Source: Amoebophrya sp. A120
Lineage: Eukaryota; Protista; Dinoflagellata
Assembly (NCBI GenBank): GCA_905178155.1
Contig: CAJINV010000003.1
Span: 1,962,395-2,026,394 of the forward strand
Direction of reading: 5' to 3'
DNA: 64,000 bases
Shown here: one piece after another, positions 28,801-58,600 of the stretch
Position numbering within the stretch: the first letter of the stretch is position 1
How the letters are laid out: every line of letters starts with the position of its first letter
The notes under the pieces: model-generated
What the model was told of the DNA's origin: nothing
Database searches by the model: none
The model's input: only the letters and a program-made list of their open reading frames with translations
Position numbers and translations under genes: made by a program

Positions 28801-31800
28801 AGATCCCCCGCGTCCTTGTATACTGCGTACTCCTTTTCCAGCTTCATGACCGCACCCAAGAAGGTCGCGTCCGCAACCTTCACGAAGGTGATGCCCTCGC
28901 ACTCGCGGACCCACGCGTTGGCCTGGTCTTTGTTCTTTTTCATGGTGGCCACATCCTTCATCAAAGACATGCCGGACGTGTTCGGGCCGCTGTAGAGCGG
29001 ATACTGCTTCATGAAGGCACTGATCAGCTTCTTCAGTTCGCGCGAGCGCTTCATTTTCTTGCGGACGGCGAAGCCGCGGTAGATCTTCTGGATGATGATC
29101 GCCTTGGCAATCTTCGCGTAGCGGGCCTGCTCGTCCAGCAGATTGAGGCCCTTCATGCGGATCATCACCTTGGTCTTCCCCATCTGGTACTCGATCTTCA
29201 ACTCCGGTTGCCTGAAGGCGTCCGCCATGCCGGCCAAGATCTCCTTGACGATCGCCCGGTCCGGGCTCGTCGCAGCCAGCTTCTTCCCCACTTTCTTCTC
29301 GGCGGCAACCCGCAGTGGGACCGGGATGCAGCACCGATACTTTTTCAGGAACTCCTCCGGGGACGCCCGGTAAGGGTAGCCCTGCCGACGAATCTTCACC
29401 AACTCCATCACACCCGAGTAGACCAGCTGCTCCAACACCTTCTTCTTCGTGAAAATGTTCGGCTTCTTCTCGTCGTTCGGCTTGATGCAACTGTTGGAGT
29501 TTTTCATACAGTAGAAGTAGCAATGAAGATGTATCATGTGTGATAGATAGATTTTTTTCTAGTAAAGAAGTGTCGTCAGAGATGCAATCGCTCGGTCTAT
29601 TTTCCATTGAAAAAAACGCGGCGTTTCTTGATATGGTTCACGACTACGACTGAACCTATCAAATTAGTTTTAGGTCAAAGATGCAGATCATCGTCAAAGG
29701 CAAGTGCAGATCTCATAGTCATCTACAGTAGATAAATTGACTTGTTTTCAAAAAAGCGTATTACAACCAGAATTGTACCGAACGAAGTGTGGCTCGGCGG
29801 AATTGATCTTGTTGATCAAAACCTTTAGCGAGTCGCGAAAGAGCTTCGAGACCGTGGCCTTCTGTCTCCTCCCCTCTTCCGCTAGGCCGTCAGCGATGAT
29901 TTTTAGAAGGGGATTCTTGGTGGTAGACAACACTTCGACGGCCAGCGGGGGTGGTTCATCCTTGTTCTTCTCGTTAACCCACTTCGTGACGTCATATTTG
30001 ACGGGCCCGGCATAATGCAGCAAAGTGAACTCGGTCCTGCCAAATTTGTCGGGGGTGTACCACTTGTTCTTCTTGTCCCCCATGATCTTGTTCAGCTTGT
30101 CGATCAACTTTTTGTCCGCCTTCGCGTTTTCACTGGGCATCCCCTTGGACTCCTCGTCACAGATCGACATAATCGAGTCTGTCGGTGCCGCAATCGTGTC
30201 CAGAATCTCCTGGTTGTCCGTAAACGCAATGTCCTCAAAGGGGACTTCTTCAGCCTTGTACTCCGGGATCTCCCTCTTGAACACGTAGTGGTTGAAGTGC
30301 TGTGACAACGTTTTTGCACTTTTTCAGAAGTAGAACTGAAGCACGTCACATTTTTACAACTTGGTCATGAACTCAGTAACTGGGTGGCTTGTCATTCAGA
30401 AGAGCATTCGCTTTCGAACTAGTAGATAAGCTCGTACTTTTTTTTGTCTTTATTTTTGCGATTATACCGACATCATTCAAATTATACCTGCTGCAAGTTT
30501 TCGTTGGACAGGTTGATCGTGAATTGCTCCCAAGTATTGAAGGTGAAAGACTCGAACCCGGCGATATCTAGCAACCCAATCTCGTCCGCCCTGCCGCCAG
30601 CGGCGCTCTGGTCGTGGTCCCCGGCAATGACTTTGTTCAGGTATTGAATGACCCAGGTAAACATCCGCGAGTAGACCAACGTAGCCAACCCGTCGCGGGC
30701 GTTCGATGCGTCCAGGACTTTTAGGCCTTTGATGGTAATTTCGTTGCCGATCTGGAGCCTGTTCGAAACGCACGCCTTTTCCAGCACCGCCTTGTCCACG
30801 TCCAGCGCCGCCGCCGCCTCGGCGCCCCCGGTAGAGAACTTGGAGGTGTCGTTTCCCGTGTCCTTGAAGGTAATGTTGCCCAGCAGCAAAATCCCGGCTA
30901 GGATCTTCAAAAACTGCTCCTTCTGGTCGGCCGGCATGAGACAATCCTCCAGCGCCTGCAACACCTCCTGGTACTCCGCCTTATCGTCAAAGCCGTCGGC
31001 CTTTGCGGACCCGTTCTTCAAAAAGCCGCAGCTCTTGGGGTCGGCGGGCAGCTTGTACTTGTTTGCGTCGCAGTAAACCAACATGTAGAAGATGTGGAAG
31101 TCGCGCTCCAGGGAACTCTGCGCCAGCACCCGGGACTTTTCCAGCAGGTAGTCCACCAGTGCGGCCCCCGCGATGTTGCCCGCGTTGTCAAAGTGCAAGG
31201 CGGTCCACTTCCCGAACCGGGAGGAGTTGTTGTTCCTCGAGGTCTTCGCGTTCCCCAGGGCCTCCAGAATTGGGTTGCACTGCATGATGCGGTCCTGCAC
31301 GCCGCTCTTGGAAGCGGCGCAGTCGGCGAAAAAACCGACCAGGATCTTGCACGCCTCGGTTTTCCCCGCCCCGGACTCCCCGGAGATCAAAATCGCCTGG
31401 TTTTTCCTGTCAATGCGGCACCCGTCCAGCGCCCACTTATGGATGTGTCAGAGTTGAAAGCGACAGAGTTGAAATAATTTGTCATGCATAAAATGGGTGC
31501 CAGCTGGAACCCAGTTCCCAAGTGGCGCATGACAAATTTCGGTGGTCCCTAAATCCAGTCTCTCATGCTGTTTAGGCAAAGAAGAGTGATTTTCTCATGC
31601 TACTTTAGCAGCTTGAGCTGTAACCCCAAACAGGCTTACAATCGGCCTCACTTGCCTGCTCTGCAACAGACGCACCTCGGGTCATGCATTTTATGCATCA
31701 CAAATTATTTCAACTCTGACGATTTCGATCCTGACACTCCCATACCACTTGCCGATCGCGTACACGTGCGGCTCGTGGTCGCGCGGGTCTTCCGCGTGGG

Positions 31801-39700: not shown

Positions 39701-40924
39701 GCCGCTCGAAGGGGTGTGAAGTGTAAAAATGTCTGGGTCTGGAAGGATCCGAACTTGTGATGCGTGTTTCGGATCCTACAAGAAAGATCTGTGATGCATA
39801 AACGTGCAAAAGCTGCCCACTTCTGGACTTGCAGAGAGGGCATTTCTCATGCAGAATACGCATCAGCAAGGAGCTGCAGAACCTGTGATGCTAGGCCCTG
39901 CATTCCAGACGTGGGGGAGCTTGGAAAAACTGCATGACAAATCTCGGAGTCTCCCAGAGGGCGCAGACATTCTTGCATTTGATAAGGGGTTGCAGGAGAC
40001 GATAATTTGGTCGATCATCGTGTAGATCTCCCCCTTCCCGTACCTATGCATTGCAAAAGTATCGTACTAGTAGTAATTGCATTCATGCATTACAAATTTT
40101 TTTCTTAAGGTAAATCCGCATGACAAATTTTATTTCTGATGCTGGGGAAATTTGTATTGCATTTATACGAGTACGATACTTTTGCAATGCATAGTACCGG
40201 GTTTCCAACGACTGCAGCACCGCGGCGTTCACCACGGACCGCAGCTGACACACGTATGAGAGTGCACAACTCCCCCTCCCACTCATTTGTATTGCATGAA
40301 CAGCAATAAAAACACCAGTACACGTGGAGCCTGCGCATGACAAATTCATGTAGTACTCCTGTTTGGGCTTCCGGAATCTGTCATGCAAACAGTGCTAAAG
40401 GGAAGCACTTGGATTTCCGGTTTTGCATGACAAATGAGGGAGAGGGAAATTTGTGCACTCTCATAACACGTCGGGTAAGCCCATTAAATGGTCGTCCTCC
40501 ACGTCCGCGACCTTGGTGATCTCGTCCGCGGTCAGCCACACCACCTCCTCATATGCATTGCAAAAATGTCTGGGTCTGGAAAAAGTGATCTTGTGATGCT
40601 GGCCTTACATTCCAAGAAAATCTGTATTGCATGACTAACAAACGCACAGCGTTCTTTGTGATGCAAAAACGCAGTTTGTCGTGCGCGCTACGTATGAGAC
40701 AGCGTTGCAGGAACTTGTCATGCTTGGCTGCATTCGAAAGCGTTTCAGTCATCCACAGTTCAGCATCACAAGTTTCCAGACCCAGACATATTTGCATGTG
40801 ATACCTGACTCGCGTTCTCGATCTGGTAGCCGCGGACCTTCTTGCCCTTCATGTCCTTAGTCTGCCCCGTGTCCTTCGCCATCACATACCCCTCGACGGG
40901 GTGTGGAATCCACTGCTTCAACAT
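33769..40924 (-). CDS. Myosin heavy chain D: motor, IQ, MyTH4, FERM-like domain, P/A/T linker, K/E tail
   Basis: Starts MLKQWIPHPVEGYV (compare MSTKVWIPHPEEGY in B and C). Motor motifs intact, IQAAFRG, EMYAQVIKQLTHNP. Five TIR elements and GT-AG introns at 37028-37232 and 36348-36536. Confidence 0.92.
35539..35777. mobile_element. TIR intron element, family 7 (239 bp), myosin D only
   Basis: 40-bp TIR with one mismatch (TATGGCGTTCTCAA(A/C)TGTTACATTCTCAACTGTTACATGA); TSD TTGGC; removal gives MDTLA|KTAPPP; absent in copies E and F. Confidence 0.93.
39715..39984. mobile_element. TIR intron element, family 1 (270 bp), myosin D
   Basis: Decayed TIR; TSD AGGGG; interior nearly identical to 3034-3296; removal gives SCNP|FERLGL. 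Confidence 0.9.
40045..40193. mobile_element. TIR intron element, family 4 (149 bp), myosin D
   Basis: TIR TATGCATTGCAAAAGTATCGTACT; TSD GTACC; removal gives LETRY|GKGEIYT; readable as GT-AG. Confidence 0.92.
40255..40465. mobile_element. TIR intron element, family 3 (211 bp), myosin D, inverted relative to 11793-12014
   Basis: Ends TATGAGAGTGCACAA...TTGTGCACTCTCATA; TSD ACACG; removal gives GLPDV|CQLRSV; empty site in copy F near 60224-60228. Confidence 0.92.
40552..40803. mobile_element. TIR intron element, family 1-related (252 bp), myosin D
   Basis: Ends TATGCATTGCAAAAATGTCTGGGTCTGGAAA...TTTCCAGACCCAGACATATTTGCATGTGATA; TSD CCTCA/CCTGA; removal gives ENASQ|EVVWLT; readable as GT-AG. Confidence 0.88.
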
Positions 40925-42092
40925 CTTGCTTCTTCGCGAGGAGGGCGGGCGGGGGGGCTGAAACTAACTAAAGGAAGCGTAAAAGTGAATGGTCAAACTT
41001 TTTTGGAAAATAACCAGTTTGATGTTACAACTTAGAACTTAAAAGCGCTTAAAGTAAACGTGCTTTTTGTCGGTCTCGTCAAAAATACCGGCAGCGCCAT
41101 GGTGCACGTGGGTCGTGATCATCATGGAACAAATAAAAATATTTCATTTGCATTTGGGACAGTAAAACAATCATGTAGCACAGGGTATCGAATTGGGATG
41201 ATGGGTGTCACAGTGGCGTTTGGCTTGCTAGGCCACTGTTGCAAATGAGAGAATGAACGTAAATAAAATCTGAGTATATATAACTTGCTCTACCGTGATG
41301 CCGGCTGAAAAAGAGCGAGCAGTGGCTGTGGCGCCTAGGTGCACGATGAAGTAGCAGACGTTTCTTATCAACAAGCACGAGTTGCAGGACGAGTCAAAAA
41401 GCACAGCACGATACCGACTCAGATTGTTATTAGTCACTTTCTGCTGGGATGTTCTTGATCAGTACGACTGCAGACCGACAATTTTAGTCTTGCCTTTGGC
41501 TTTGCGCCATGGTCATTCACATAGTACAACCGATTTTGATTTATAATTAACCACTGCCTGGATTGCAAACAAAGAGTAGTTCATTTTCATAGAGGGACCG
41601 AATTTCACGAATGAAATACTGGAGAAGCGCCAGAAAATGAGAATAGATGCGAACGCCAATGGTCTCCCATTTCGGAAGATCATAGGCACTCGCCACTTGA
41701 GAAAGCGCTTGATTTAGATAAAGCCTTTAGTGCAATTAGAAACGTCGCGTCGCTCAATCCTTATTTCTCCGCATATTTCCGTCCATGAGGACATGCATCA
41801 TGCTACTTGCGATTGCGCATCATGAGTTAAATACCTGCACTGTTACTCTCGCATCATCAGATATGCATCTTTAGGTGTAGCAAGTATTCGTGTCAAACGA
41901 TAGTCGGCACTCGAATAAATCAATGCACATATTATCAGTAATTTTCTTGTGGCCCGCATGCAGCTCGGTCCTGAAACAAGGCAAACAGCATCACAAACAA
42001 AGCTCGATGTACAATCACAAGTCAAATTGTTGAAGCCTTCAGCAAGCAAGTTCGCCCGGAAACAGGGCGCACCCCAAAAAAACAAAACTGAA

Positions 42093-45000
42093 TGAAGTCT
42101 CCGACTGATATCATTTGACAAAGATTGCCCCAGGGTGCAACGTGCAGAGCCTGAGACGGACATTGTCCAATGATATAGAGCCCGGCGAGGCAGTATCGCC
42201 TACGCAGGCCCGCGTCGTGCGCGACATGTGGATCGACAGCGGAGATCTAGATCGCAAATTCGCAAACTCACACTCTGATCGAACCAACGCAAGGATACAA
42301 GTGGCGCTGCTCACTCAACCACCACCTTTGCGGGGCGATACAGTCCTGGCCGACACTCTAGCTAACTAACGACGAACAACAACAACGAAGCTTTTTTCTT
42401 GTCTCGTCACCTGGCGAAGCCAACCCTTGCAAGCTTTTGAAGGGAGGGAGCGGACGGGTCTTTTCAAAACTTGCAGCGGAGCCACGCCTTTCCTGCAGGC
42501 GACGGCTCGAACTCAATAGTTTCCATCTCAAGTAGCTACTTTTTTCGGGCTTTTGAGGTACTCGCAAAGGGGAGGTGGCGCACACTAACTCACCTCGACT
42601 TTCACCGCGAAAGCCGTGCGGCCCCACATACAAAAAGATCGCCGCGCTCTCAGGATGGAAGCTAGCTAGGAAGTGAACACCAACAGCAGAACCGTCTGTA
42701 GCTAATTCTTGTGCCAACCAGAATTAGCTAGGGCGCACTAGAAATCTTTTTCAGTCTTCGTATCCTTTCCTGCGTCTACGATTTCACTCTGGATCAACGT
42801 ATTGCGCATGCTCAGATCCTTAATGAAATCTCCGACTGATATCATTTGACAAAGATTGTCCCAGGGTGCAACGTGCAGAGCCTGAGACGGACACTGTCCA
42901 ATGATATAGAGCTCGGCGAGGCAGTATCGCCTACGCAGGCCCGCGTCGTGCGCGACATGTGGATCGACAGCGGTGATCTAGATCGCAAATTCGCAAAATG
43001 CGTAACATCCACCACTTCCGATCCTGAGAACAGCGAAGCTTTTTGAAGGGTGCACCCCTGCCCTAAACACTTCACTACTGTGAAGCGGCGTAGCCCTTTG
43101 CGGAAATGAAAACCAGAGGCAGCAATTGGTCGACCCACTGAAGTCAATTAGTTGTCCTCAGCAAAGTCGAAGATTTTGGCCAAACCATTTTTCCAGGTGC
43201 GAGACACTCTAACCGCGAACGATTCTAGTTTTGCTAGATAATCGCTCCAGTTGCCGCCAGCGCGACAGCATCCTATGCGCGCGGGGAAACCGATGATGGC
43301 TGTAGCTTCTTCGTTCGGGAGTCGATGTTTCAATTTTTCAAAGAAATCGCCGAGCGCCTGTTGGAACCACGCCAACCGCTTTGCCTGCGTTTCCGCATTA
43401 CCCTGCTGGTTCTTCGGCGGTAGCCCTGGCTTGTGTTGGCCATACAAGTTTGCTACTAACTTGCTTGCACGGGTTGAAACCTTTCGCAGATCCGCCGTGC
43501 CCGGGACTCTTTTGTAGGACTTCGCGCACGTGTTTGCTGGTGGATATTTGAAAAGTATCTTCTTCGCTATACCTTCCGCTTTTCCTATGGTCAGGCAGTT
43601 TGTCTGGTGCGCGATCACATTCATGTTGTCTGCTAGAATTGATCCCCGCACATGCACCAGCGGCACTCTTTCCGGCTTTACTTTCTGGCTTGCTTTTCTC
43701 TTCGGCTTCTCCAACAGTGCCAAGGTACTTTCCGAGTACCCTTCGCACTTTGTCTGCAGACTTTGCGCTGGCACTGTGCTCAGCACCAGATAGGTGTCGT
43801 CTGTTGGCGGTAGGTCTACCCAGCTTGCTCCTTTCCATACTTGGAATATCGATTTATTCTTCTGGAATCTGCTCACCGTGTGAAACTTCGAATGCAAATA
43901 AGCAAGCCTGCTTTTGTATTTTGGAACTAAAACCAACGCCCGGGGGCGCTGTGCTTCCGGGACTTTCATGTAGTCCACCAATTTCTTGAGGACCGGCATA
44001 ATTGCAAAGCTGCCTGGATGCCACCAACTCAATTCCAGCGCCATTTCGTGGTCTGTGGTCTGGTACGCGTCCGTGATGTGGTTTTTGAAATAATCCACCA
44101 GTCTGCTGTGACCCTCACGATCACGCATCGCGTCCACTGTTGGCGTGATTTTCAGCCTTGAGCATACCGACGACAACGCTTCTGGTTTTAGTCGTTTGCT
44201 CGGGTTCTGGTCGTACAGCGTACTGCTGAGCTGTAGTCGGCTGATCGCGTCTGCTATCACATTATGCTTGCCCCGCACATGTTGCGCCAGCATTTTTATT
44301 CCCAACCTGTTTTGCATCAACTTGATGGCCTTGGCTTTTTCTGCGAGCCACTGTTTCCGCCCGGTCCCAAAGTTGATGTAGTGCATGGCACTGGTATTGT
44401 CTGTCCGCAGAAGGATAATTCTGCCCGCAAAACGTTCGCCGTATTTTTTTAGCCATTCTGCGACTGTGGTCAGATCCCTTTTGTTGGAGTGTCTTTGGTC
44501 GATTTCTTCGCTGAAGTCGCCCTCGTGCCGCACTTCGTCCCCGTCCGCCGTCAGCCCCCAATGAAACCCGCTAGCATCACTTGTGACGATCATGAAAGAG
44601 GCGGGATCAATATCTTGGAAGATTTCGGGATGATCAAGCAATTCCGGAGTAAACAGGAAAGATAAGCCCTCGGTCGTGGAAAAGATGGGGATAAAAGGAT
44701 CGTCTTTGAGGACTTGAAGCCACCAAGAAAAATCTGCTATGACCGCAGCGGAGAGCTGGGGAGATGGACTGAAAGACTTGCGTCCTTTGGTCCATGCAGC
44801 GATAGCCCCCGAATCCCCAAGCAAGTCGTAAGCGTTCCGCAGAAATGCGCGCCCAGCCGAGACAACAAAGGAGATGAAGTTCAACTTTCCTACTATCGAC
44901 GCCAGATCTTTTGCGTTCGTTGATAATCCGTTCGCGGCCTCTTGCAAGCATTTTCTAATGCTGCAATATACTTTTCGCGTTGTTCTGGGTCCACGTAAAT

Positions 45001-45656
45001 CCGCATCTTGATGGCGTTGATCATGAACCCTATCCAGCAGATGCACTGCGTCGGATAAGTCATCTTATCCAGCTTATCCGCCCGGAATCCATGTAAAACC
45101 AATCCTGGAACGAAGGAAAAGGCGCGAAGTTTTAGAGGCACGAAGGTCGTCCCCTTACCGCTCACGCGTCGGATTTCGGAGGCGGCTTCGCAACACTCAG
45201 GGGCTTCCGACCGAAGATGACGAATAAATAGCTGAGAACAGTTTAACCGGGACTGGCAGCGACGCACACTGTGTGCAAACATTACACAAGATGCACACTG
45301 CGCGCAAGCGGGAACTAAAGTGGCAAACACATCTTGCGTTGCGGGCCTTCTGGCCACATGCGTTCTAGCATGCTAAACTTTTGGACGTGATGTCTTTCAT
45401 TACGTCCCAACTGAGCCCAAGCAGCGAAAGAGGCTGTCGCGTCGACGACTTACTTTGGCTAACCGAAATCCTACAGCCTTACCGCACGGCGCGTCGGATT
45501 TCGTGCCGTAATCACTCAAGCTAACGAGGTCTTTCAGCCTTTAACTTAGTCCTTTCTATCCTATACTAATAGCTACTTTTTTCGGACTTTTGAGGTACTC
45601 GCAAAGGGGAGGTGGCGTACACTAACTCACCTCGACTTTCACCGCGAAAGCCGTGC
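42093..45656 (-). mobile_element. Internally deleted tyrosine-recombinase-class retroelement (DIRS order, Ngaro/PAT-like split direct repeats), copy 1
   Basis: On the coding strand the order is A1 (45656-45570), ORF, B1 (42997-42822), A2 (42619-42533), B2 (42266-42091). DIRS-type RT end and RNase H. The left junction is defined by comparison with the uninterrupted flank at 62101-62160. No gag, RT catalytic core or recombinase seen. Confidence 0.8.
43148..45100 (-). pseudogene. Retroelement pol remnant: RT C-terminus (frameshifted near 44935), RNase H, adenine-MTase-like domain, macrodomain
   Basis: KMTYPTQCICWIGFMIN (RT end, other frame); LASIVGKLNF...GRAFLR; TSDASGFHWG...LRTDNTSAMHYIN...HVRGKHNVIADAISR (RNase H); PTVDAM...DAY...WWHP...VLVP (MTase-like); RGSIL...IAHQTNC...GIAKKI...NLYGQ...FPARIGCCRAGGNW (macro). 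Confidence 0.8.
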
Positions 45657-48600
45657 TGCAACTTCATTGTTGCTATTCGCGCCCGTCGCCGCCGCGGCCT
45701 CGGCGGCGGCCTTCTCCCCCGCGGCCGGCGGCGGTGCGGTCTTGGCCATCGTGTCCATGCACTGCGTGGCCATGGTCAGCAATTCCTTCTTTTCGGGCAG
45801 CTCCTTCTCGAACTTCTGTTTGGACTTGACCAGAAAAGCCCGCACGTACTCAATGAAGTCGGGCGTGGGGATGGCGTGCTGGAAGATGAAGGCGAGCAGC
45901 TTCCACCCTAAGAGCTGGGACCGCAGCCCCGGGTTGTGGGTGAGCTGCTTGATCACCTGCGCGTACATCTCGTTGGTCAGCGCCGCCTCGGACCGCGCCT
46001 TCCACACGATCGCGTACAACAGCGGCACGCGCCGCTTCTCGTCCACGGGGTGGTCCGTCATCCAACCGAGCACGTTTCGGTAGGCCGCGGTAGCGGTGGA
46101 GTTCATGCTGGCGTCCCCGATGTTCGTCAACGGGGCGGACAGCTTATTCTTGCTCCACGCGAACGTGCCCCCGGGCTCGCACGGAAGAATCTTATTCCCG
46201 TCCGGACCCGTGATGGGCTTTACCACATCCGTGTTGATGCAGGGGGCCTTGCTCATGTCACCGTACAACGCCATCACCATGTCGAGGTTACCCGACGCCA
46301 CTTTACCGTCCCTGGGGTTGATGTTGATGCGTGTTTATTCAGATATAGAAGAGTGCACATGATCAGCGATCGAGTTTTCAAAATTCAAACGCACTGGAAC
46401 TGGTGCCGGCCTAGATGCGAGACGAGCCGTTTCCGTTTGTTTCTACAACAGTGCATCTGCATGTATGACTAGAATACAATTAGCATATGCAAACAGAAAC
46501 ACTTTAGGAAACACGGGGAAAAAACACCAGAAGTGATTAATACCTTTGGAACAGGGACCCACGTCGAATATGGGCGATGCGCGAAGCGTTTTCCGCCTTT
46601 GTGAGAAGATCGGCGTCGACGCCCGCATCTTGTCCGGCAAGAGCTAAATTCGCGACCTTGGTGGCCAGGCCGTGAAAATCTTTCTTGGCTTCCAGGGTTT
46701 TCAGACAGGAATGCAGCTGTTCCTCGATCCACCCGGGGTCCATAAGCTTCGTCAACATTTCTCGCGCAGGCTTCAGATCGTTGGCGTCCACCTGTCCATT
46801 CGCCACGCACGTTGACAGGGACGCTTGGATCCCCCGCTTGTCGCAATTGTTGATGGCCGCCGTCAGCAACTTTACGAGCTCCTTGGGAGAATCGTGCTTC
46901 AACTCGTGCTTCTCGAGCTTCTCCTCGTCCAACTTGCTCTTCAGCCGCTCCCACTGGGCTTGCAGCTTCACAAATTTCGCGCCCGCCTGCTCGTCCAACC
47001 AATCGGACTGGTTTTTTAACCCCTTCTGGGTAGCCTATGCGTCAGAGAAAATAAAAACTTTCACTTTGTTTTAATTGAAAAGAAAAACCTCATTAGGCTG
47101 AGGCTAGCTCTAGCAGGTGAAGACTGCAGCAGAAGCAAAATCACATAACGCTATGAAAGCATGCTACCACGAAACAAGTTGACAGGAAGAACGAGCTAAA
47201 AGTCGAAGAAACTTTTATTTACCTGCTCCACGACGTGCTGCAGCCGCTTGCATGCGTCGAGGTCCGACGGGCTTGGGTCGGTTCGGTCGGACAGACCGGC
47301 CATGGCGGTGATCAGCGGCAGCTGCACGGAGAGCATGTCGAGCCGGACCGCCAGGCGCTTGGCCACTTCGTCCTCGATTGCCAGATTGGTCAGCTGGGAG
47401 ACCGCGGTCTGCAACTGATCCAAATCGACCGTCTTCAGCAATGCGTTCATGTCCTTGTAGACTTCGTACTCCTTGTGGAGCTTCGTTTGACAGGTGAGAA
47501 ACGCCGCTTCGCACACCTTCAGCTTGGTGCTCATGGACTCGATCTCCGCCCGCCACTTCTTCACCTGGTCGCACTCCGCCTTCAACTTGCCCAAGTCGTT
47601 CTTAAACGTCGCCAACGCGTTGGTGTTGGGCGTGTTCGGTTTGTACAACTTGGAACCCGTCGTCTTCATCCAGTTTTGCGTCATGCCGCGGAGCTCCCGC
47701 GCCCGCTTCGTCATCTTCCTCGCGCGGTAGCCGCGGAAGGCCGCCTGGATTTTGATGGTTTTCTCGAGTGTGGCAAACCGCACCTGCTCGTCGAGGACTT
47801 GGTGGCCCCGAAGACGGGCCATCACCTTGGTTTTTCCCATCACGTACTGGCCCTTCAACTCCGGTTGGTGGAACACCTCCGGAAGGCGGTCCAGAATCAG
47901 CGTAACCACCGCCGGGTCGGGGAGCTTTTTGCCCGCTTTTTTCTCACATTCCATCCGGAGTTTCACCGGAAAGCACGCACGGTATTTGCGGCAGAACTCG
48001 GCGGGCAAAGCGCGTAACGGATACCCCTGCTGCCGGATTTTCACCGCTTCCATCGCGCCGGAGAAAATCAGCTGCTCCAACACCTTCGCGCGCGTGAAAA
48101 TCTTCGGCTTCTTCTCGTCGTTGGGCTTGATGCACCGGACAAAGTGCGGCACGGCGGAACGAATTCGCTCCATTAGCGTTTTCAGCGACGCGCGGAACTG
48201 GGTTGATACCGTCAACTTTTTCTGCTTGCCCTCTTCTTCCAGTTGCTTCCCTAAATCCCTCAGCAACTCGTTCTTCGAGGTCTTCAGCACGTCCATCGCC
48301 TCGGGCGGCGGGTCGTCCGTGTTTTTTTCATGCACCCAGCCGCCGACATTGTAGGTGACCTTGCCGGCGTAGTGGGTCAGCGTGAACTCCGGCGGGTCCT
48401 TGTTGAACTTGTCCGCCTCGAAGTAAGCATTCTTCTTGGTTTCCATCAGCTTCCCCAGATTGTTCATAAACGTCTTGTCCGTTTGCCGCATCCCTTTGGT
48501 GGCGTCGTCCAGTACGCTGAAGATGGAGTCCCTGGGCGCGGCAATCGTGTCCAGGATCTCCTGGTTGTCCGCGAACGTGATGCCCTCGACGGAAACCCCC

Positions 48601-50911
48601 TCCGCCTTGTAGTCCGCCATTTCGCGCTTGAACACGAATTCGTTGAAGTGCTGCTGCAGGTTCTCGTTGGATAAATTGATGGTGATCTGCTCCCAGGTGT
48701 TGTTGGGGAAGGACTCGAAGCCCGCGATATCCAGTAAACCCACCTCGATCTTCTTCGCGCTGCTGTTCCCGATGTCCCCGGCGACAACTTTGTTTAAGTT
48801 TTCCATCAGCCAGGCGAACAGCCGCGAGTACACCAGCGTGGCTAACCCGTTCCGCGCCTCGTTCGCCAGCTCCGGCTTCAGTTGCTTCACCGTCACGTCC
48901 TTCCCGACGATCAGCTTCTTGTTCGTGATCGCGGTCTGCAGCACCTTGTCGTCGCACTCCCAGGCGGTGGACACTTCCTTGGTCTTGTCGCAGATGGACG
49001 AATCGTTTTTCCCCGCTTTAAAACTCACGTTCCCGAGCAATAAAATGCCCGCCACCGCCTTGAACAGGTCGGCGCGCTTCTTCTCGCCGATGGTGACGTC
49101 CTCGAAGGCCGACACCACCTCGTTGTACTCGGTTTTGTCATCCACGCCGTCGGCGAGCTGGGCTCCGCTTTTCAGGTAGTTGAAGTCGCTCCACTTCGTG
49201 CCCTTCGGCAGCCCGTACTTCGCCCCGTCGGGGCCGTGCAGCAGCATGTAGAAGATGTGAAAGTTGCGCTCCAAACTGGTCTGCTTCAGCACGCGCGACT
49301 TCTCCAGCAAATAGTCCACCAGCAGCGCACCGTCGATGGAGCCCTTTTGCCCGAACATGATCGCGGTCCACTTCCCGAACCGGGACGAGTTGTTGTTCCG
49401 GGAGGTCTTCGCGTTCCCAAAAGCTTCCAAGATCGGGTTGCACTGCATGATGCGGTCCTGGATGCGGCTCTCGTTGTGCCCGGCGGAGTCCGCGAAGAAC
49501 CCCAACATGATCTTACACGCTTCGGTCTTCCCCGCCCCGGACTCTCCGGAGATCAAAATCGCCTGGTTCAAACTCTCGCGCACGCACCCCGACAAAGCGG
49601 TCTTGGCGATGGAGTACACGTGCGGGGGCTGCTCCCGGGAATCCGCCGCGTTAATGTACTTGTCCATGACCTCGGGCGTGTCCAGGCCCAGCCGCTCGAA
49701 GGGGTGTGAAGTGTAAAAGTGTCTGGGTCTGGAAGGATCCGAACTTGTGATGCGTGTTTCGGATCCTACGAGAAAGATCTGTGATGCACAAACGTGCAAA
49801 AGGTGCCCACTTCTGGCCTTGCTGAGAGGGCATCTCTCATGCAGAATACGCATCAGCAAGGAGCTGCAGAACCTGTGATGCTAGGCCCTGCATTCCAGAC
49901 GTGGGGGAGCTTGGAAAAACTGCATGACAAATCTCGGAGTCTCCCAGACCCAGACATTTTTGCAATTCATAAGGGGTTGCAGGAGACGATGATCTGGTCG
50001 ATCATCGTATAGATCTCCCCCTTCCCGTACCTATGCATTGCAAAAGTATCGTACTAGTAGTAATTGCATTCATGCATTACAAATTTTTTTCTTAAGGTAA
50101 ATCCGCATGACAAATTTTATTTCTGATGCTGGGGAAATTTGTATTGCATTTATACGAGTACGATACTTTTGCAATGCATAGTACCGGGTTTCCAACGACT
50201 GCAGCACCGCGGCGTTCACCACGGACCGCAGCTGACACACGTATGAGAGTGCACAACTCCCCCTCCCACTCATTTGTATTGCATGAACAGCAATAAAAAC
50301 ACCAGTACACGTGGAGCCTGCGCATGACAAATTCATGTAGTACTCCTGTTTGGGCTTCCGGAATCTGTCATGCAAACAGTGCTAAAGGGAAGCACTTGGA
50401 TTTCCGGTTTTGCATGACAAATGAGGGAGAGGGAAATTTGTGCACTCTCATAACACGTCGGGTAAGCCCATTAAATGGTCGTCCTCCACGTCCGCGACCT
50501 TGGTGATCTCGTCCGCGGTCAGCCACACCACCTCCTCATATGCATTGCAAAAATGTCTGGGTCTGGAAAAAGTGATCTTGTGATGCTGGCCTTACATTCC
50601 AAGAAAATCTGTATTGCATGACTAACAAACGCACAGCGTTCTTTGTGATGCAAAAACGCAGTTTGTCGTGCGCGCTACGTATGAGACAGCGTTGCAGGAA
50701 CTTGTCATGCTTGGCTGCATTCGAAAGCGTTTCAGTCATCCACAGTTCAGCATCACAAGTTTCCAGACCCAGACATATTTGCATGTGATACCTGACTCGC
50801 GTTCTCGATCTGGTAGCCGCGGACCTTCTTGCCCTTCATGTCCTTAGTCTGCCCCGTGTCCTTCGCCATCACATACCCCTCGACGGGGTGTGGAATCCAC
50901 TGCTTCAACAT
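45639..50911 (-). CDS. Myosin E: D-type copy truncated after MyTH4 (no FERM or tail); may be a pseudogene
   Basis: Near-identical to D through MyTH4. The frame runs into the retroelement A1 repeat and stops at ...EVAARLSR*. Confidence 0.75.
49705..49971. mobile_element. TIR intron element, family 1 (267 bp), myosin E, same site as 39715
   Basis: TSD AGGGG; right end CCCAGACCCAGACATTTTTGCAATTCATA. Confidence 0.9.
50032..50180. mobile_element. TIR intron element, family 4 (149 bp), myosin E, copy of 40045
   Basis: Same sequence, TSD GTACC. Confidence 0.9.
50242..50452. mobile_element. TIR intron element, family 3 (211 bp), myosin E, copy of 40255
   Basis: Same sequence, TSD ACACG. Confidence 0.9.
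50539..50790. mobile_element. TIR intron element (252 bp), myosin E, copy of 40552
   Basis: Same sequence, TSD CCTCA/CCTGA. Confidence 0.88.
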
Positions 50912-52079
50912 CTTGCTTCTTCGCGAGGAGGGCGGGCGGGGGGGCTGAAACTAACTAAAGGAAGCGTAAAAGTGAATGGTCAAACTTTTTTGGAAAATAA
51001 CCAGTTTGATGTTACAACTTAGAACTTAAAAGCGCTTAAAGTAAACGTGCTTTTTGTCGGTCTCGTCAAAAATACCGGCAGCGCCATGGTGCACGTGGGT
51101 CGTGATCATCATGGAACAAATAAAAATATTTCATTTGCATTTGGGACAGTAAAACAATCATGTAGCACAGGGTATCGAATTGGGATGATGGGTGTCACAG
51201 TGGCGTTTGGCTTGCTAGGCCACTGTTGCAAATGAGAGAATGAACGTAAATAAAATCTGAGTATATATAACTTGCTCTACCGTGATGCCGGCTGAAAAAG
51301 AGCGAGCAGTGGCTGTGGCGCCTAGGTGCACGATGAAGTAGCAGACGTTTCTTATCAACAAGCACGAGTTGCAGGACGAGTCAAAAAGCACAGCACGATA
51401 CCGACTCAGATTGTTATTAGTCACTTTCTGCTGGGATGTTCTTGATCAGTACGACTGCAGACCGACAATTTTAGTCTTGCCTTTGGCTTTGCGCCATGGT
51501 CATTCACATAGTACAACCGATTTTGATTTATAATTAACCACTGCCTGGATTGCAAACAAAGAGTAGTTCATTTTCATAGAGGGACCGAATTTCACGAATG
51601 AAATACTGGAGAAGCGCCAGAAAATGAGAATAGATGCGAACGCCAATGGTCTCCCATTTCGGAAGATCATAGGCACTCGCCACTTGAGAAAGCGCTTGAT
51701 TTAGATAAAGCCTTTAGTGCAATTAGAAACGTCGCGTCGCTCAATCCTTATTTCTCCGCATATTTCCGTCCATGAGGACATGCATCATGCTACTTGCGAT
51801 TGCGCATCATGAGTTAAATACCTGCACTGTTACTCTCGCATCATCAGATATGCATCTTTAGGTGTAGCAAGTATTCGTGTCAAACGATAGTCGGCACTCG
51901 AATAAATCAATGCCCATATTATCAGTAATTTTCTTGTAGCCCGCATGCAGCTCGGTCCTGAAACAAGTCAAACAGCATCACAAACAAAGCTCGATGTACA
52001 ATCACAAGTCAAATTGTTGAAGCCTTCAGCAAGCAAGTTCGCCCGGAAACAGGGCGCACCCCAAAAAAACAAAACTGAA

Positions 52080-55000
52080 TGAAGTCTCCGACTGATATCA
52101 TTTGACAAAGATTGCCCCAGGGTGCAACGTGCAGAGCCTGAGACGGACATTGTCCAATGATATAGAGCCCGGCGAGGCAGTATCGCCTACGCAGGCCCGC
52201 GTCGTGCGCGACATGTGGATCGACAGCGGAGATCTAGATCGCAAATTCGCAAACTCACACTCTGATCGAACCAACGCAAGGATACAAGTGGCGCTGCTCA
52301 CTCAACCACCACCTTTGCGGGGCGATACAGTCCTGGCCGACACTCTAGCTAACTAACGACGAACAACAACAACGAAGCTTTTTTCTTGTCTCGTCACCTG
52401 GCGAAGCCAACCCTTGCAAGCTTTTGAAGGGAGGGAGCGGACGGGTCTTTTCAAAACTTGCAGCGGAGCCACGCCTTTCCTGCAGGCGACGGCTCGAACT
52501 CAATAGTTTCCATCTCAAGTAGCTACTTTTTTCGGGCTTTTGAGGTACTCGCAAAGGGGAGGTGGCGCACACTAACTCACCTCGACTTTCACCGCGAAAG
52601 CCGTGCGGCCCCACATACAAAAAGATCGCCGCGCTCTCAGGATGGAAGCTAGCTAGGAAGTGAACACCAACAGCAGAACCGTCTGTAGCTAATTCTTGTG
52701 CCAACCAGAATTAGCTAGGGCGCACTAGAAATCTTTTTCAGTCTTCGTATCCTTTCCTGCGTCTACGATTTCACTCTGGATCAACGTATTGCGCATGCTC
52801 AGATCCTTAATGAAATCTCCGACTGATATCATTTGACAAAGATTGTCCCAGGGTGCAACGTGCAGAGCCTGAGACGGACACTGTCCAATGATATAGAGCT
52901 CGGCGAGGCAGTATCGCCTACGCAGGCCCGCGTCGTGCGCGACATGTGGATCGACAGCGGTGATCTAGATCGCAAATTCGCAAAATGCGTAACATCCACC
53001 ACTTCCGATCCTGAGAACAGCGAAGCTTTTTGAAGGGTGCACCCCTGCCCTAAACACTTCACTACTGTGAAGCGGCGTAGCCCTTTGCGGAAATGAAAAC
53101 CAGAGGCAGCAATTGGTCGACCCACTGAAGTCAATTAGTTGTCCTCAGCAAAGTCGAAGATTTTGGCCAAACCATTTTTCCAGGTGCGAGACACTCTAAC
53201 CGCGAACGATTCTAGTTTTGCTAGATAATCGCTCCAGTTGCCGCCAGCGCGACAGCATCCTATGCGCGCGGGGAAACCGATGATGGCTGTAGCTTCTTCG
53301 TTCGGGAGTCGATGTTTCAATTTTTCAAAGAAATCGCCGAGCGCCTGTTGGAACCACGCCAACCGCTTTGCCTGCGTTTCCGCATTACCCTGCTGGTTCT
53401 TCGGCGGTAGCCCTGGCTTGTGTTGGCCATACAAGTTTGCTACTAACTTGCTTGCACGGGTTGAAACCTTTCGCAGATCCGCCGTGCCCGGGACTCTTTT
53501 GTAGGACTTCGCGCACGTGTTTGCTGGTGGATATTTGAAAAGTATCTTCTTCGCTATACCTTCCGCTTTTCCTATGGTCAGGCAGTTTGTCTGGTGCGCG
53601 ATCACATTCATGTTGTCTGCTAGAATTGATCCCCGCACATGCACCAGCGGCACTCTTTCCGGCTTTACTTTCTGGCTTGCTTTTCTCTTCGGCTTCTCCA
53701 ACAGTGCCAAGGTACTTTCCGAGTACCCTTCGCACTTTGTCTGCAGACTTTGCGCTGGCACTGTGCTCAGCACCAGATAGGTGTCGTCTGTTGGCGGTAG
53801 GTCTACCCAGCTTGCTCCTTTCCATACTTGGAATATCGATTTATTCTTCTGGAATCTGCTCACCGTGTGAAACTTCGAATGCAAATAAGCAAGCCTGCTT
53901 TTGTATTTTGGAACTAAAACCAACGCCCGGGGGCGCTGTGCTTCCGGGACTTTCATGTAGTCCACCAATTTCTTGAGGACCGGCATAATTGCAAAGCTGC
54001 CTGGATGCCACCAACTCAATTCCAGCGCCATTTCGTGGTCTGTGGTCTGGTACGCGTCCGTGATGTGGTTTTTGAAATAATCCACCAGTCTGCTGTGACC
54101 CTCACGATCACGCATCGCGTCCACTGTTGGCGTGATTTTCAGCCTTGAGCATACCGACGACAACGCTTCTGGTTTTAGTCGTTTGCTCGGGTTCTGGTCG
54201 TACAGCGTACTGCTGAGCTGTAGTCGGCTGATCGCGTCTGCTATCACATTATGCTTGCCCCGCACATGTTGCGCCAGCATTTTTATTCCCAACCTGTTTT
54301 GCATCAACTTGATGGCCTTGGCTTTTTCTGCGAGCCACTGTTTCCGCCCGGTCCCAAAGTTGATGTAGTGCATGGCACTGGTATTGTCTGTCCGCAGAAG
54401 GATAATTCTGCCCGCAAAACGTTCGCCGTATTTTTTTAGCCATTCTGCGACTGTGGTCAGATCCCTTTTGTTGGAGTGTCTTTGGTCGATTTCTTCGCTG
54501 AAGTCGCCCTCGTGCCGCACTTCGTCCCCGTCCGCCGTCAGCCCCCAATGAAACCCGCTAGCATCACTTGTGACGATCATGAAAGAGGCGGGATCAATAT
54601 CTTGGAAGATTTCGGGATGATCAAGCAATTCCGGAGTAAACAGGAAAGATAAGCCCTCGGTCGTGGAAAAGATGGGGATAAAAGGATCGTCTTTGAGGAC
54701 TTGAAGCCACCAAGAAAAATCTGCTATGACCGCAGCGGAGAGCTGGGGAGATGGACTGAAAGACTTGCGTCCTTTGGTCCATGCAGCGATAGCCCCCGAA
54801 TCCCCAAGCAAGTCGTAAGCGTTCCGCAGAAATGCGCGCCCAGCCGAGACAACAAAGGAGATGAAGTTCAACTTTCCTACTATCGACGCCAGATCTTTTG
54901 CGTTCGTTGATAATCCGTTCGCGGCCTCTTGCAAGCATTTTCTAATGCTGCAATATACTTTTCGCGTTGTTCTGGGTCCACGTAAATCCGCATCTTGATG

Positions 55001-55643
55001 GCGTTGATCATGAACCCTATCCAGCAGATGCACTGCGTCGGATAAGTCATCTTATCCAGCTTATCCGCCCGGAATCCATGTAAAACCAATCCTGGAACGA
55101 AGGAAAAGGCGCGAAGTTTTAGAGGCACGAAGGTCGTCCCCTTACCGCTCACGCGTCGGATTTCGGAGGCGGCTTCGCAACACTCAGGGGCTTCCGACCG
55201 AAGATGACGAATAAATAGCTGAGAACAGTTTAACCGGGACTGGCAGCGACGCACACTGTGTGCAAACATTACACAAGATGCACACTGCGCGCAAGCGGGA
55301 ACTAAAGTGGCAAACACATCTTGCGTTGCGGGCCTTCTGGCCACATGCGTTCTAGCATGCTAAACTTTTGGACGTGATGTCTTTCATTACGTCCCAACTG
55401 AGCCCAAGCAGCGAAAGAGGCTGTCGCGTCGACGACTTACTTTGGCTAACCGAAATCCTACAGCCTTACCGCACGGCGCGTCGGATTTCGTGCCGTAATC
55501 ACTCAAGCTAACGAGGTCTTTCAGCCTTTAACTTAGTCCTTTCTATCCTATACTAATAGCTACTTTTTTCGGACTTTTGAGGTACTCGCAAAGGGGAGGT
55601 GGCGTACACTAACTCACCTCGACTTTCACCGCGAAAGCCGTGC
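52080..55643 (-). mobile_element. Deleted tyrosine-recombinase-class retroelement, copy 2
   Basis: Appears identical to 42093-45656 at +9,987, with the same split direct repeats. Confidence 0.8.
53135..55087 (-). pseudogene. Retroelement pol remnant (RT end, RNase H, MTase-like, macrodomain), copy 2
   Basis: The 632-aa ORF translation is identical to 43148-45046 and carries the same frameshift. Confidence 0.8.
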
Positions 55644-58600
55644 TGCAACTTCATTGTTGCTATTCGCGCCCGTCGCCGCCGCGGCCTCGGCGGCGGCCTT
55701 CTCCCCCGCGGCCGGCGGCGGTGCGGTCTTGGCCATCGTGTCCATGCACTGCGTGGCCATGGTCAGCAATTCCTTCTTTTCGGGCAGCTCCTTCTCGAAC
55801 TTCTGTTTGGACTTGACCAGAAAAGCCCGCACGTACTCAATGAAGTCGGGCGTGGGGATGGCGTGCTGGAAGATGAAGGCGAGCAGCTTCCACCCTAAGA
55901 GCTGGGACCGCAGCCCCGGGTTGTGGGTGAGCTGCTTGATCACCTGCGCGTACATCTCGTTGGTCAGCGCCGCCTCGGACCGCGCCTTCCACACGATCGC
56001 GTACAACAGCGGCACGCGCCGCTTCTCGTCCACGGGGTGGTCCGTCATCCAACCGAGCACGTTTCGGTAGGCCGCGGTAGCGGTGGAGTTCATGCTGGCG
56101 TCCCCGATGTTCGTCAACGGGGCGGACAGCTTATTCTTGCTCCACGCGAACGTGCCCCCGGGCTCGCACGGAAGAATCTTATTCCCGTCCGGACCCGTGA
56201 TGGGCTTTACCACATCCGTGTTGATGCAGGGGGCCTTGCTCATGTCACCGTACAACGCCATCACCATGTCGAGGTTACCCGACGCCACTTTACCGTCCCT
56301 GGGGTTGATGTTGATGCGTGTTTATTCAGATATAGAAGAGTGCACATGATCAGCGATCGAGTTTTCAAAATTCAAACGCACTGGAACTGGTGCCGGCCTA
56401 GATGCGAGACGAGCCGTTTCCGTTTGTTTCTACAACAGTGCATCTGCATGTATGACTAGAATACAATTAGCATATGCAAACAGAAACACTTTAGGAAACA
56501 CGGGGAAAAAACACCAGAAGTGATTAATACCTTTGGAACAGGGACCCACGTCGAATATGGGCGATGCGCGAAGCGTTTTCCGCCTTTGTGAGAAGATCGG
56601 CGTCGACGCCCGCATCTTGTCCGGCAAGAGCTAAATTCGCGACCTTGGTGGCCAGGCCGTGAAAATCTTTCTTGGCTTCCAGGGTTTTCAGACAGGAATG
56701 CAGCTGTTCCTCGATCCACCCGGGGTCCATAAGCTTCGTCAACATTTCTCGCGCAGGCTTCAGATCGTTGGCGTCCACCTGTCCATTCGCCACGCACGTT
56801 GACAGGGACGCTTGGATCCCCCGCTTGTCGCAATTGTTGATGGCCGCCGTCAGCAACTTTACGAGCTCCTTGGGAGAATCGTGCTTCAACTCGTGCTTCT
56901 CGAGCTTCTCCTCGTCCAACTTGCTCTTCAGCCGCTCCCACTGGGCTTGCAGCTTCACAAATTTCGCGCCCGCCTGCTCGTCCAACCAATCGGACTGGTT
57001 TTTTAACCCCTTCTGGGTAGCCTATGCGTCAGAGAAAATAAAAACTTTCACTTTGTTTTAATTGAAAAGAAAAACCTCATTAGGCTGAGGCTAGCTCTAG
57101 CAGGTGAAGACTGCAGCAGAAGCAAAATCACATAACGCTATGAAAGCATGCTACCACGAAACAAGTTGACAGGAAGAACGAGCTAAAAGTCGAAGAAACT
57201 TTTATTTACCTGCTCCACGACGTGCTGCAGCCGCTTGCATGCGTCGAGGTCCGACGGGCTTGGGTCGGTTCGGTCGGACAGACCGGCCATGGCGGTGATC
57301 AGCGGCAGCTGCACGGAGAGCATGTCGAGCCGGACCGCCAGGCGCTTGGCCACTTCGTCCTCGATTGCCAGATTGGTCAGCTGGGAGACCGCGGTCTGCA
57401 ACTGATCCAAATCGACCGTCTTCAGCAATGCGTTCATGTCCTTGTAGACTTCGTACTCCTTGTGGAGCTTCGTTTGACAGGTGAGAAACGCCGCTTCGCA
57501 CACCTTCAGCTTGGTGCTCATGGACTCGATCTCCGCCCGCCACTTCTTCACCTGGTCGCACTCCGCCTTCAACTTGCCCAAGTCGTTCTTAAACGTCGCC
57601 AACGCGTTGGTGTTGGGCGTGTTCGGTTTGTACAACTTGGAACCCGTCGTCTTCATCCAGTTTTGCGTCATGCCGCGGAGCTCCCGCGCCCGCTTCGTCA
57701 TCTTCCTCGTGCGGTAGCCGCGGAAGGCCGCCTGGATTTTGATGGTTTTCTCGAGTGTGGCAAACCGCACCTGCTCGTCGAGGACTTGGTGGCCCCGAAG
57801 ACGGGCCATCACCTTGGTTTTTCCCATCACGTACTGGCCCTTCAACTCCGGTTGGTGGAACACCTCCGGAAGGCGGTCCAGAATCAGCGTAACCACCGCC
57901 GGGTCGGGGAGCTTTTTGCCCGCTTTTTTCTCACATTCCATCCGGAGCTTCACCGGAAAGCACGCGCGGTACTTCCGGCAGAACTCGGCGGGCAAAGCGC
58001 GTAACGGATACCCCTGCTGCCGGATTTTCACCGCCTCCATGGCGCCGGAAAAAATCAGCTGCTCCAACACCTTCGCGCGCGTGAAAATCTTCGGTTTCTT
58101 CTCGTCGTTGGGCTTGATGCACCGGACAAAATGCGGCACGGCGGAACGAATTCGCTCCATTAGCGTTTTCAGCGACGCGCGGAACTGGGTTGAAACCGTC
58201 AACTTTTTCTGCTTGCCCTCTTCCTCCAATTGCTTCCCTAAATCCCGCAGCAACTCGTTCTTCGAGGTCTTCAGCACGTCCATCGCCTCGGGCGGCGGGT
58301 CGTCCGTGTTTTTTTCATGCACCCAGCCACCGACATTGTAGGTGACCTTGCCGGCGTAGTGGGTCAGCGTGAACTCCGGCGGGTCCTTGTTGAACTTGTC
58401 CGCCTCGAAGTAAGCATTCTTCTTGGTTTCCATCAGCTTCCCCAGATTGTTCATAAACGTCTTGTCCGTTTGCCGCATCCCTTTGGTGGCGTCGTCCAGT
58501 ACGCTGAAGATGGAGTCCCTGGGCGCGGCAATCGTGTCCAGGATCTCCTGGTTGTCCGCGAACGTGATGCCCTCGACGGAAACCCCCTCCGCCTTGTAGT

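What the first reader, a model, noticed from the sequence alone, without database searches (positions are those of the whole stretch)
43148..44600. DIRS-order retroelement pol fused to a macrodomain
Seen: after RNase H and a degenerate adenine-MTase-like region, the same ORF continues into about 170 aa (roughly 43666-43150) with RGSIL-IAHQTNC-GIAKKI-KYP-PGT-NLYGQ-FPARIGCCRAGGNW. Known: this matches the Poa1p/TARG1/DarG-like macrodomain pattern (ADP-ribose binding or removal), and viruses use macrodomains against host ADP-ribosylation. The MTase-like domain is a normal DIRS part. Inference: I do not know of a macrodomain as a standard DIRS component, so it could be captured counter-defence cargo. 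The usual GCG loop reads GCC here, so this copy may be inactive.
Basis: partly seen in the sequence, partly recalled or inferred. Interest (0 to 1): 0.78.

Follow-up and report, generated by a model that had tools for sequence, protein, structure and literature searches.

The report
Recombinase retrotransposon with ADP-ribose eraser
A broken jumping gene, likely in a marine parasitic dinoflagellate, ends its copying-enzyme gene in a whole domain predicted to fold like the enzymes that strip ADP-ribose tags from DNA and protein, which its active ancestor likely carried to undo such tags, although no intact relative with the domain was found.

Summary
The fusion is real. One stop-free frame (43148-45064, minus strand) runs RT thumb, RNase H, methyltransferase-like domain, a short linker and a whole ALC1/TARG1-class macrodomain (model pLDDT 92; Z about 17 to Bt_1257, TARG1, DarG). 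It lies inside a 3.6-kb element with split direct repeats (A1..B1-A2-B2), so the layout is PAT-like, not DIRS1-like. The copy is dead: no gag, recombinase or RT core was detected, pol has a frameshift, and three conserved macrodomain residues are changed, one matching SCO6735 Gly128. The SCO6735 residues His24, Asn27 and Gln85 are kept. The nearest pol relatives are from Amoebophrya, and none of the 53 pol relatives tested carries a macrodomain. The only second copy is an identical tandem duplicate. The macrodomain subfamily occurs in giant viruses, but the tree names no donor. Best reading: cargo fixed in the Pol of one parent family (0.6); an anti-ADP-ribosylation role is untested. Earlier scan notes report TARG1-type domains in LTR/Gypsy Pol on other DNA; none for this order.

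The parts
42091..45668 (-). Whole element, about 3.58 kb, internally deleted split-direct-repeat retrotransposon; its two ends are an 8-bp inverted pair (45668-45661 and 42098-42091)
45570..45659 (-). Repeat A1 (5' end)
   Evidence: 3 differences in 90 bp to A2
44956..45132 (-). Remnant of the RT C-terminal part, in another frame than the main ORF (frameshift between 44956 and 44935); the RT catalytic part upstream was not detected
   Evidence: tblastn of P0002, P0006, P0015, 39-47% identity
43148..45064 (-). Open frame of 638 aa stop to stop; homology to pol starts near 44935
44237..44590 (-). RNase H domain; three conserved Asp kept, the conserved Glu reads Asp
   Evidence: alignment A2, codons
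43769..44200 (-). Adenine-methyltransferase-like domain, normal end of pol in relatives
43664..43768 (-). Linker of 35 codons, lysine-rich in its second half
   Evidence: sequence
43151..43663 (-). Whole ALC1/TARG1-class macrodomain of the Gln type (SCO6735/Bt_1257-like), followed by the stop
42819..42997 (-). Repeat B1, 150 bp after the stop
   Evidence: 6 differences in 179 bp to B2
42533..42622 (-). Repeat A2 (196 bp after B1)
42088..42266 (-). Repeat B2 (3' end)
52075..55646 (-). Second copy of the element, identical over 3572 bp, within a 9987-bp tandem unit
   Evidence: 0 differences
45669..49880 (-). Host myosin gene copy (motor, IQ, MyTH4) whose last exon is cut off by the element's 5' end; context, not part of the element

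Best explanation
This is a dead, internally deleted copy of a split-direct-repeat retrotransposon, likely of the PAT-like tyrosine-recombinase kind, whose parent family likely carried a captured macrodomain at the end of Pol, predicted to bind and strip ADP-ribose. Shown: repeat layout, domain order, in-frame fusion, fold class, decay. Inferred: as part of Pol the domain would travel with the reverse transcriptase and would remove ADP-ribose from the element's single-stranded cDNA, its RNA ends or its proteins, by the Gln/Asn-type chemistry described for SCO6735; this would counter host ADP-ribosylation. The donor was likely a member of a subfamily common in giant viruses (unresolved). The present copy cannot move by itself and its macrodomain is probably impaired.
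For: The domain lies between the element's own repeats, 150 bp before B1, so it is no neighbouring gene. It is whole, intron-free, in frame, joined 35 codons after the point where relatives end, and followed at once by the stop; 30 of 34 other pol proteins that reach the methyltransferase-like part end within 50 residues of that point. Its codon use matches pol (GC3s 0.56 against 0.58; flanking myosin exons 0.86). His24, Asn27 and Gln85 of SCO6735 are kept, and the matching H, N, Q are in 193, 199 and 201 of 202 relatives (PMC9411070, passages). Repeat divergence of 9 in 269 bp implies about 1.7% decay per copy, at which 1.3 new stops are expected in 600 codons (chance of none 0.28): the changed residues fit recent decay of a once conserved domain. 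Of 74 viral and 31 prokaryote-genome macrodomains in the tree, 30 and 3 fall in the 232-tip clade that holds the query (support 0.84); three of these viral loci carry nucleocytoplasmic-virus hallmark genes.
Against: No second family member with the fusion: of 150 hits only the window's own protein has both parts, a search for longer proteins with the macrodomain gave only the window's protein among 459 candidates, and 13 pol relatives scored nothing with the macrodomain profile. In run X2 only one contig covers the element's body at 80% likeness or more. Conservation of the domain could have been kept in the donor, not in the element. The codon test is weak, as any weakly biased sequence would resemble pol more than myosin. 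The tree gives the query a long branch and weak nodes (0.69, 0.62, 0.13). No activity, no expression and no host ADP-ribosylation of the element was shown.
Confidence: 0.6

Rival explanations
1. One-off chimera: a macrodomain gene fragment of viral or host origin was joined to pol in this lineage of dead or non-autonomous copies and never served an active element.
For: Only this locus and its tandem twin have it; the copy is otherwise rearranged (large internal deletion, frameshift); related loci in X2 share the repeat region but not the body.
Against: A chance join would rarely be in frame, whole, at the exact end of pol and closed by a stop; codon use matches pol; no close donor exists in the databases (best identity 46%).
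Confidence: 0.25
2. The domain was true cargo, but for housekeeping in the element's own cycle: clearing ADP-ribose-phosphate products or ADP-ribose caps at nucleic-acid ends during circle formation, as Poa1p-like enzymes would, or only binding ADP-ribosylated chromatin to steer insertion.
For: Poa1p structures head the Foldseek list (E 5e-8) and PHROG 335 is named phosphatase. The link to ligation chemistry is recalled, from no call.
Against: By VIA-align Bt_1257, TARG1 and DarG rank above Poa1p, though within about 1 Z unit; by sequence profile Bt_1257 and SCO6735 are closest. All other relatives do without the domain, so it is no core step.
Confidence: 0.1
3. The host keeps the RNase H-methyltransferase-macrodomain frame as a co-opted gene, read from the truncated myosin gene upstream.
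For: The 600-codon frame has no stop and lies in the myosin gene's direction; a gene of 481 aa was called on it (P0001).
Against: No stop is expected by chance in 28% of cases at this age; conserved residues are changed in both RNase H and the macrodomain; raw RNA reads of X9 and X10 gave no cover of the element, but they barely cover the locus at all, so this is no test.
Confidence: 0.05

Closest known systems
PAT-like tyrosine-recombinase retrotransposons (PAT, TOC, kangaroo; PMC3266345 and PMC6681497, passages)
   Same: Split direct repeats in the order A1..B1-A2-B2; pol with RT, RNase H and a methyltransferase-like domain.
   Different: Extra C-terminal macrodomain; B1 and A2 lie 196 bp apart; no gag, recombinase or RT core detected in this copy; no tree with reference elements could be made.
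Unnamed Amoebophrya pol proteins P0002, P0263 (AT5.2 gene models), P0003, P0004 (A25)
   Same: 37-46% identity over RT thumb, RNase H and methyltransferase-like parts.
   Different: None has the macrodomain. P0002 and P0263 have an intact-looking RT and, upstream, a region with recombinase-like motifs (read by eye; no profile hit).
SCO6735 (PDB 5E3B) and Bt_1257 (2FG1, 2AFC), Gln-type ALC1-like macrodomains
   Same: Best profile hits (E 9e-14 and 1e-9), Z 17.5 and 15.2; His24, Asn27, Gln85 equivalents kept; long loop after the Gln.
   Different: About 21-24% identity; Gly128 equivalent is Cys and the next residue Arg; fused to pol instead of standing alone.
Human TARG1 (4J5Q/R/S), DarG (5M3E, 5M3I), yeast Poa1p (6LFQ-U)
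   Same: Same fold class, Z 16-17, rmsd 2.2-2.9.
   Different: The catalytic Lys of TARG1 and DarG is Gln here, as in SCO6735.
Hydrolase-bearing YR retrotransposons and ALOG-bearing DIRS1-type elements (PMC6681497, PMC3537659, passages)
   Same: YR retrotransposons with an extra domain.
   Different: Other domains and places; the word macro occurs 0 times in PMC3537659 and only in a species name in PMC3783388.

Membership tests
PAT-like YR retrotransposon | Split direct repeats A1..B1-A2-B2 | tested here: met
   A 90 bp and B 179 bp, both 96.6-96.7% alike, in this order
PAT-like YR retrotransposon | pol with RT and RNase H | tested here: met
   RNase H motifs and RT C-terminal remnant; 10 of 25 aligned proteins hit RVT_1. 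RT core missing in this copy
PAT-like YR retrotransposon | Methyltransferase-like domain after RNase H (absent from Ngaro and VIPER) | tested here: met
   Indirect: 7 of 25 aligned proteins hit Dam, best E 1e-9; Atlas 0.93
PAT-like YR retrotransposon | Tyrosine recombinase and gag ORFs | tested here: inconclusive
   Not detected in this deleted copy or the window; in relatives P0002, P0263, P0015 only motifs read by eye, no profile hit
PAT-like YR retrotransposon | RT/RNase H tree places it with PAT, TOC, kangaroo | not testable with these tools
   No named reference elements were available from any call
DIRS1-like superfamily | Long inverted terminal repeats with an internal complementary region | tested here: not met
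   Self-comparison shows only direct repeats in the element; the 8-bp inverted ends are far shorter
ALC1/TARG1-class macrodomain | Macro fold, closest to this class | tested here: met
   pLDDT 92; ranks 1-18 by Z are Bt_1257, TARG1, DarG, Poa1p, SCO6735 entries
SCO6735-type hydrolase | His24, Asn27, Gln85 | tested here: met
   Alignment to 5E3B and column counts
SCO6735-type hydrolase | Gly128 in the phosphate-binding loop | tested here: not met
   Cys here; Gly in 93% and Cys in 1 of 202 relatives; next residue Arg in 1 of 202
TARG1 or DarG proper | Catalytic Lys84 / Lys80 | tested here: not met
   Gln at the position that PMC9411070 (passages) gives as equivalent
SCO6735-type hydrolase | Removes ADP-ribose from thymidine in ssDNA and from protein | not testable with these tools
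   Needs an assay

The most novel reading that the evidence does not exclude
A tyrosine-recombinase retrotransposon family of a parasitic dinoflagellate took an ADP-ribose eraser from a giant virus and fused it to Pol to protect its single-stranded cDNA or Pol from host ADP-ribosylation. With the TARG1-type captures noted in animal LTR elements, this would be an independent capture, of another enzyme subtype, in another retrotransposon order and another eukaryote supergroup, pointing to ADP-ribosylation as a general anti-retroelement defence.
Probability: 0.25. Interest if true: 0.78.

Novelty: new variant of a known kind. Interest (0 to 1): 0.5.

Why it matters
Macrodomains are known counter-defence tools of viruses and antitoxins of DNA-ADP-ribosylating systems. 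I found none described for DIRS-order retrotransposons in six paper searches. If active family members keep the fusion, they give a direct test of whether eukaryotes mark retroelement cDNA or proteins with ADP-ribose, and a case of gene flow from giant viruses into a transposon. If it is confined to this dead copy, it is a curiosity.

Tried and rejected
No host genome was held, so family members could not be searched directly. Folding the domain without an alignment failed (pLDDT 35). Two scans of metagenome contigs found no relative of the pol part (325 and 13 pattern matches, none confirmed). The JmjC tail of P0002 first looked like alternative cargo at the same place; rejected as unproven, because P0263 is 77% identical over the first 1500 residues yet ends in a DEAD helicase, which fits gene models running into different neighbours; their DNA could not be seen. 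Contig depth: the element's body has 46.7 in X2, like other single contigs there (43-46), which hints at one copy and so at an assembly or strain origin of the tandem twin; in X1 the element has 41 and element-free flank contigs about 365; the tool says depth is no copy number and X1's RNA label is a guess, so neither is used as evidence. X6, X7, X8 gave only 3, 2 and 1 short pieces, none over the macrodomain. Rfam: 0 matches over 41800-45900. No profile confirmed the recombinase of the relatives. No complex was predicted.

Full report
Observation. The minus-strand frame 45064-43148 is open for 638 codons. Its first 400 residues from 44950 match retrotransposon pol proteins and its last 170 match macrodomains: in a phmmer search of 1.84 billion representatives (2039 hits at E 0.001; best 150 listed), 54 of the 150 score above 30 bits with the pol part, 97 with the macrodomain part, and only the window's own protein P0001 with both. 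Three public runs hold the stretch 42944-45616 on one contig with no difference (X1, X2, X4); one of them may be the source of the window, so they show accuracy, not spread.

The element. Self-comparison shows two direct repeats in the order A1 (45659-45570), ORF, B1 (42997-42819), A2 (42622-42533), B2 (42266-42088), each pair about 96.6% alike. This is the split-direct-repeat layout of PAT-like, Ngaro and VIPER elements; PAT-like elements resemble DIRS1 in structure but for their termini, and Ngaro and VIPER lack the methyltransferase domain (PMC3266345, PMC6681497, PMC3783388; passages). The region after RNase H aligns with relatives of which 7 of 25 hit Pfam Dam, so the PAT-like reading fits best; I could not test it with a reference tree. 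The copy is defective: an RT remnant at 45132-44956 is out of frame with the main ORF, nothing upstream matches the RT core or the upstream part of the longest relative, and the conserved RNase H Glu reads Asp.

Host and locus. The best pol hits are Amoebophrya proteins (P0002 46%, P0003 38%, P0004 37%, P0263 42%), so the host is likely a syndinian of that genus (inferred; no strain is assigned). The element cuts off the last exon of a MyTH4 myosin gene and sits at the junction of a duplicated myosin gene, not at a simple empty site: its left and right flanks come from opposite ends of the gene. A second, identical copy lies 9987 bp on; the units have no difference from 41982 to 47722 and 30 differences from 47723 to 49335, which fits unequal crossing-over between paralogues or a haplotype or assembly effect. 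It is no independent insertion.

The macrodomain. With 60 relatives as alignment the model has pLDDT 92. VIA-align gives Z 17.5 to Bt_1257 (rmsd 2.4, 149 aligned), 17.2 to TARG1, 17.1 to DarG, 16.3 to Poa1p and 15.2 to SCO6735, against at most 14.6 for other macrodomain classes; the profile ranks Bt_1257 and SCO6735 first. PMC9411070 (passages) reports that SCO6735 removes ADP-ribose from thymidine in DNA and from protein, that Q85A abolishes and N27S nearly abolishes activity, and that G128E causes a substantial loss. Counting along the 5E3B alignment (20-residue offset worked out by me), His24, Asn27 and Gln85 are kept here, and Gly128 is the Gly that reads Cys. Among 202 relatives this position is Gly in 93%, the next is Leu, Ile or Met in 96% (Arg here), and a Tyr kept in 98% is Cys here (the relatives were picked by likeness to the query, which inflates agreement). 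So the domain was an enzyme-like member of the Gln type and is probably impaired now.

Cargo or accident. For cargo: the domain is inside the repeats, whole, intron-free, in frame, 35 codons after the usual end of pol and closed by a stop; 30 of 34 other pol proteins reaching that region end within 50 residues (the other four are P0091, P0027, whose excess is an internal insertion in alignment A2, and the gene models P0002 and P0263); codon use matches pol (a weak test). Repeat divergence implies about 1.7% decay, enough for the changed residues and compatible with no new stop. Against: no other member with the fusion was found, only one contig covers the body in X2 at 80% likeness, and two related loci there share only the repeat region. 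These searches are limited: one search scored 459 candidates, another the top 7989, and the host genome was not held.

Origin. The closest relatives are 43-46% identical and mostly unnamed. In a FastTree of 308 domains the query lies on a long branch in a clade of 232 (support 0.84) that holds 30 of 74 viral-contig and 3 of 31 prokaryote-genome domains (the genome scan read 18 of 64 parts with one pattern). Of 39 neighbouring proteins scanned from 15 of these viral loci, an NCLDV capsid (L011), a viral poly(A) polymerase (L005) and an Rpb2 (L004) mark giant viruses, and L020 has a PARP. A giant-virus donor is a fair lead; the data do not establish it.

Mechanism. Shown: anatomy, fold, decay. 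Inferred: in the parent, Pol carried the domain into the replication complex. DIRS-1 is reported to amplify through linear single-stranded cDNA (PMC7192593, search listing and start of abstract only; a DIRS1-type, not a PAT-type element), the kind of substrate that DarT-type transferases mark and this enzyme class cleans. I therefore favour removal of host-added ADP-ribose from cDNA, RNA or Pol, at 0.6 for cargo of an active family and lower for the defence role as such.

Novelty. Searches for macrodomain or macro domain with DIRS, tyrosine recombinase, retrotransposon, Gypsy, retroelement or Appr-1 gave 0, 0, 2, 2, 3 and 7 papers; I saw only the listings, and no title concerns the matter. The Amoebophrya genome paper has no occurrence of DIRS or tyrosine recombinase in its main text (PMC7789003, passages; supplements not read). 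Repbase, Dfam and subscription papers could not be searched. I recall, from no call, that macrodomains have been seen in some other retroelements. Five earlier notes of this scan describe TARG1-type domains in Pol of LTR/Gypsy elements on other DNA (unchecked); none was found for this order. Verdict: a real, unusual variant of a known kind of element, known so far from one dead locus; interest 0.5.

Noticed in passing
proteins P0048, P0045, P0154, P0072 (ENA contigs of 10-13 kb for the first three): The same macrodomain subfamily sits in long proteins after a zinc-knuckle-like and a protease-like motif (read by eye) and before a SET domain (Pfam); these look like gag-protease polyproteins of another retroelement, a possible second capture of this subfamily.
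   Followed up: partly
window 45216 joined to 41854 (or the matching place at 51841 or 61910): One contig of poly(A) metatranscriptome run X7 (depth 2.8) joins these points, skipping most of the element; the ends are not GT-AG. It may be a non-canonical splice, a deletion allele or a chimera.
   Followed up: partly
window 45668-45661 and 42098-42091: The element's outermost 8 bases are inverted copies, so a circle junction would be a 16-bp palindrome, as a recombinase site might be; untested.
   Followed up: no
window 3029-3300, 9003-9279, 24307-24572, 39719-39987, 49709-49974, 59696-59961, 62872-63146; also 8617-8925, 14155-14460, 31437-31744: Two families of 270-310-bp elements with inverted ends, 70-91% alike; those at 24307, 31437 and 39719 lie in or at the edge of myosin coding regions and resemble the introner elements described for Amoebophrya (PMC7789003, passages).
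   Followed up: no
window about 10500-60200: An array of at least six myosin motor genes on the minus strand; the middle one of the last three is a mosaic of its neighbours.
   Followed up: partly
proteins P0002 and P0263: Two closely related Amoebophrya gene models of this element family end in a JmjC/cupin domain and a DEAD helicase; probably gene-model fusions, but the DNA was not seen.
   Followed up: partly
protein P0059: A distant pol relative has a C5 cytosine methylase-like region at its N-terminus (Pfam E 1e-4).
   Followed up: no
L020:1564-3060: A viral contig encodes a PARP with WGR domain about 2 kb from a macrodomain of this subfamily.
   Followed up: no
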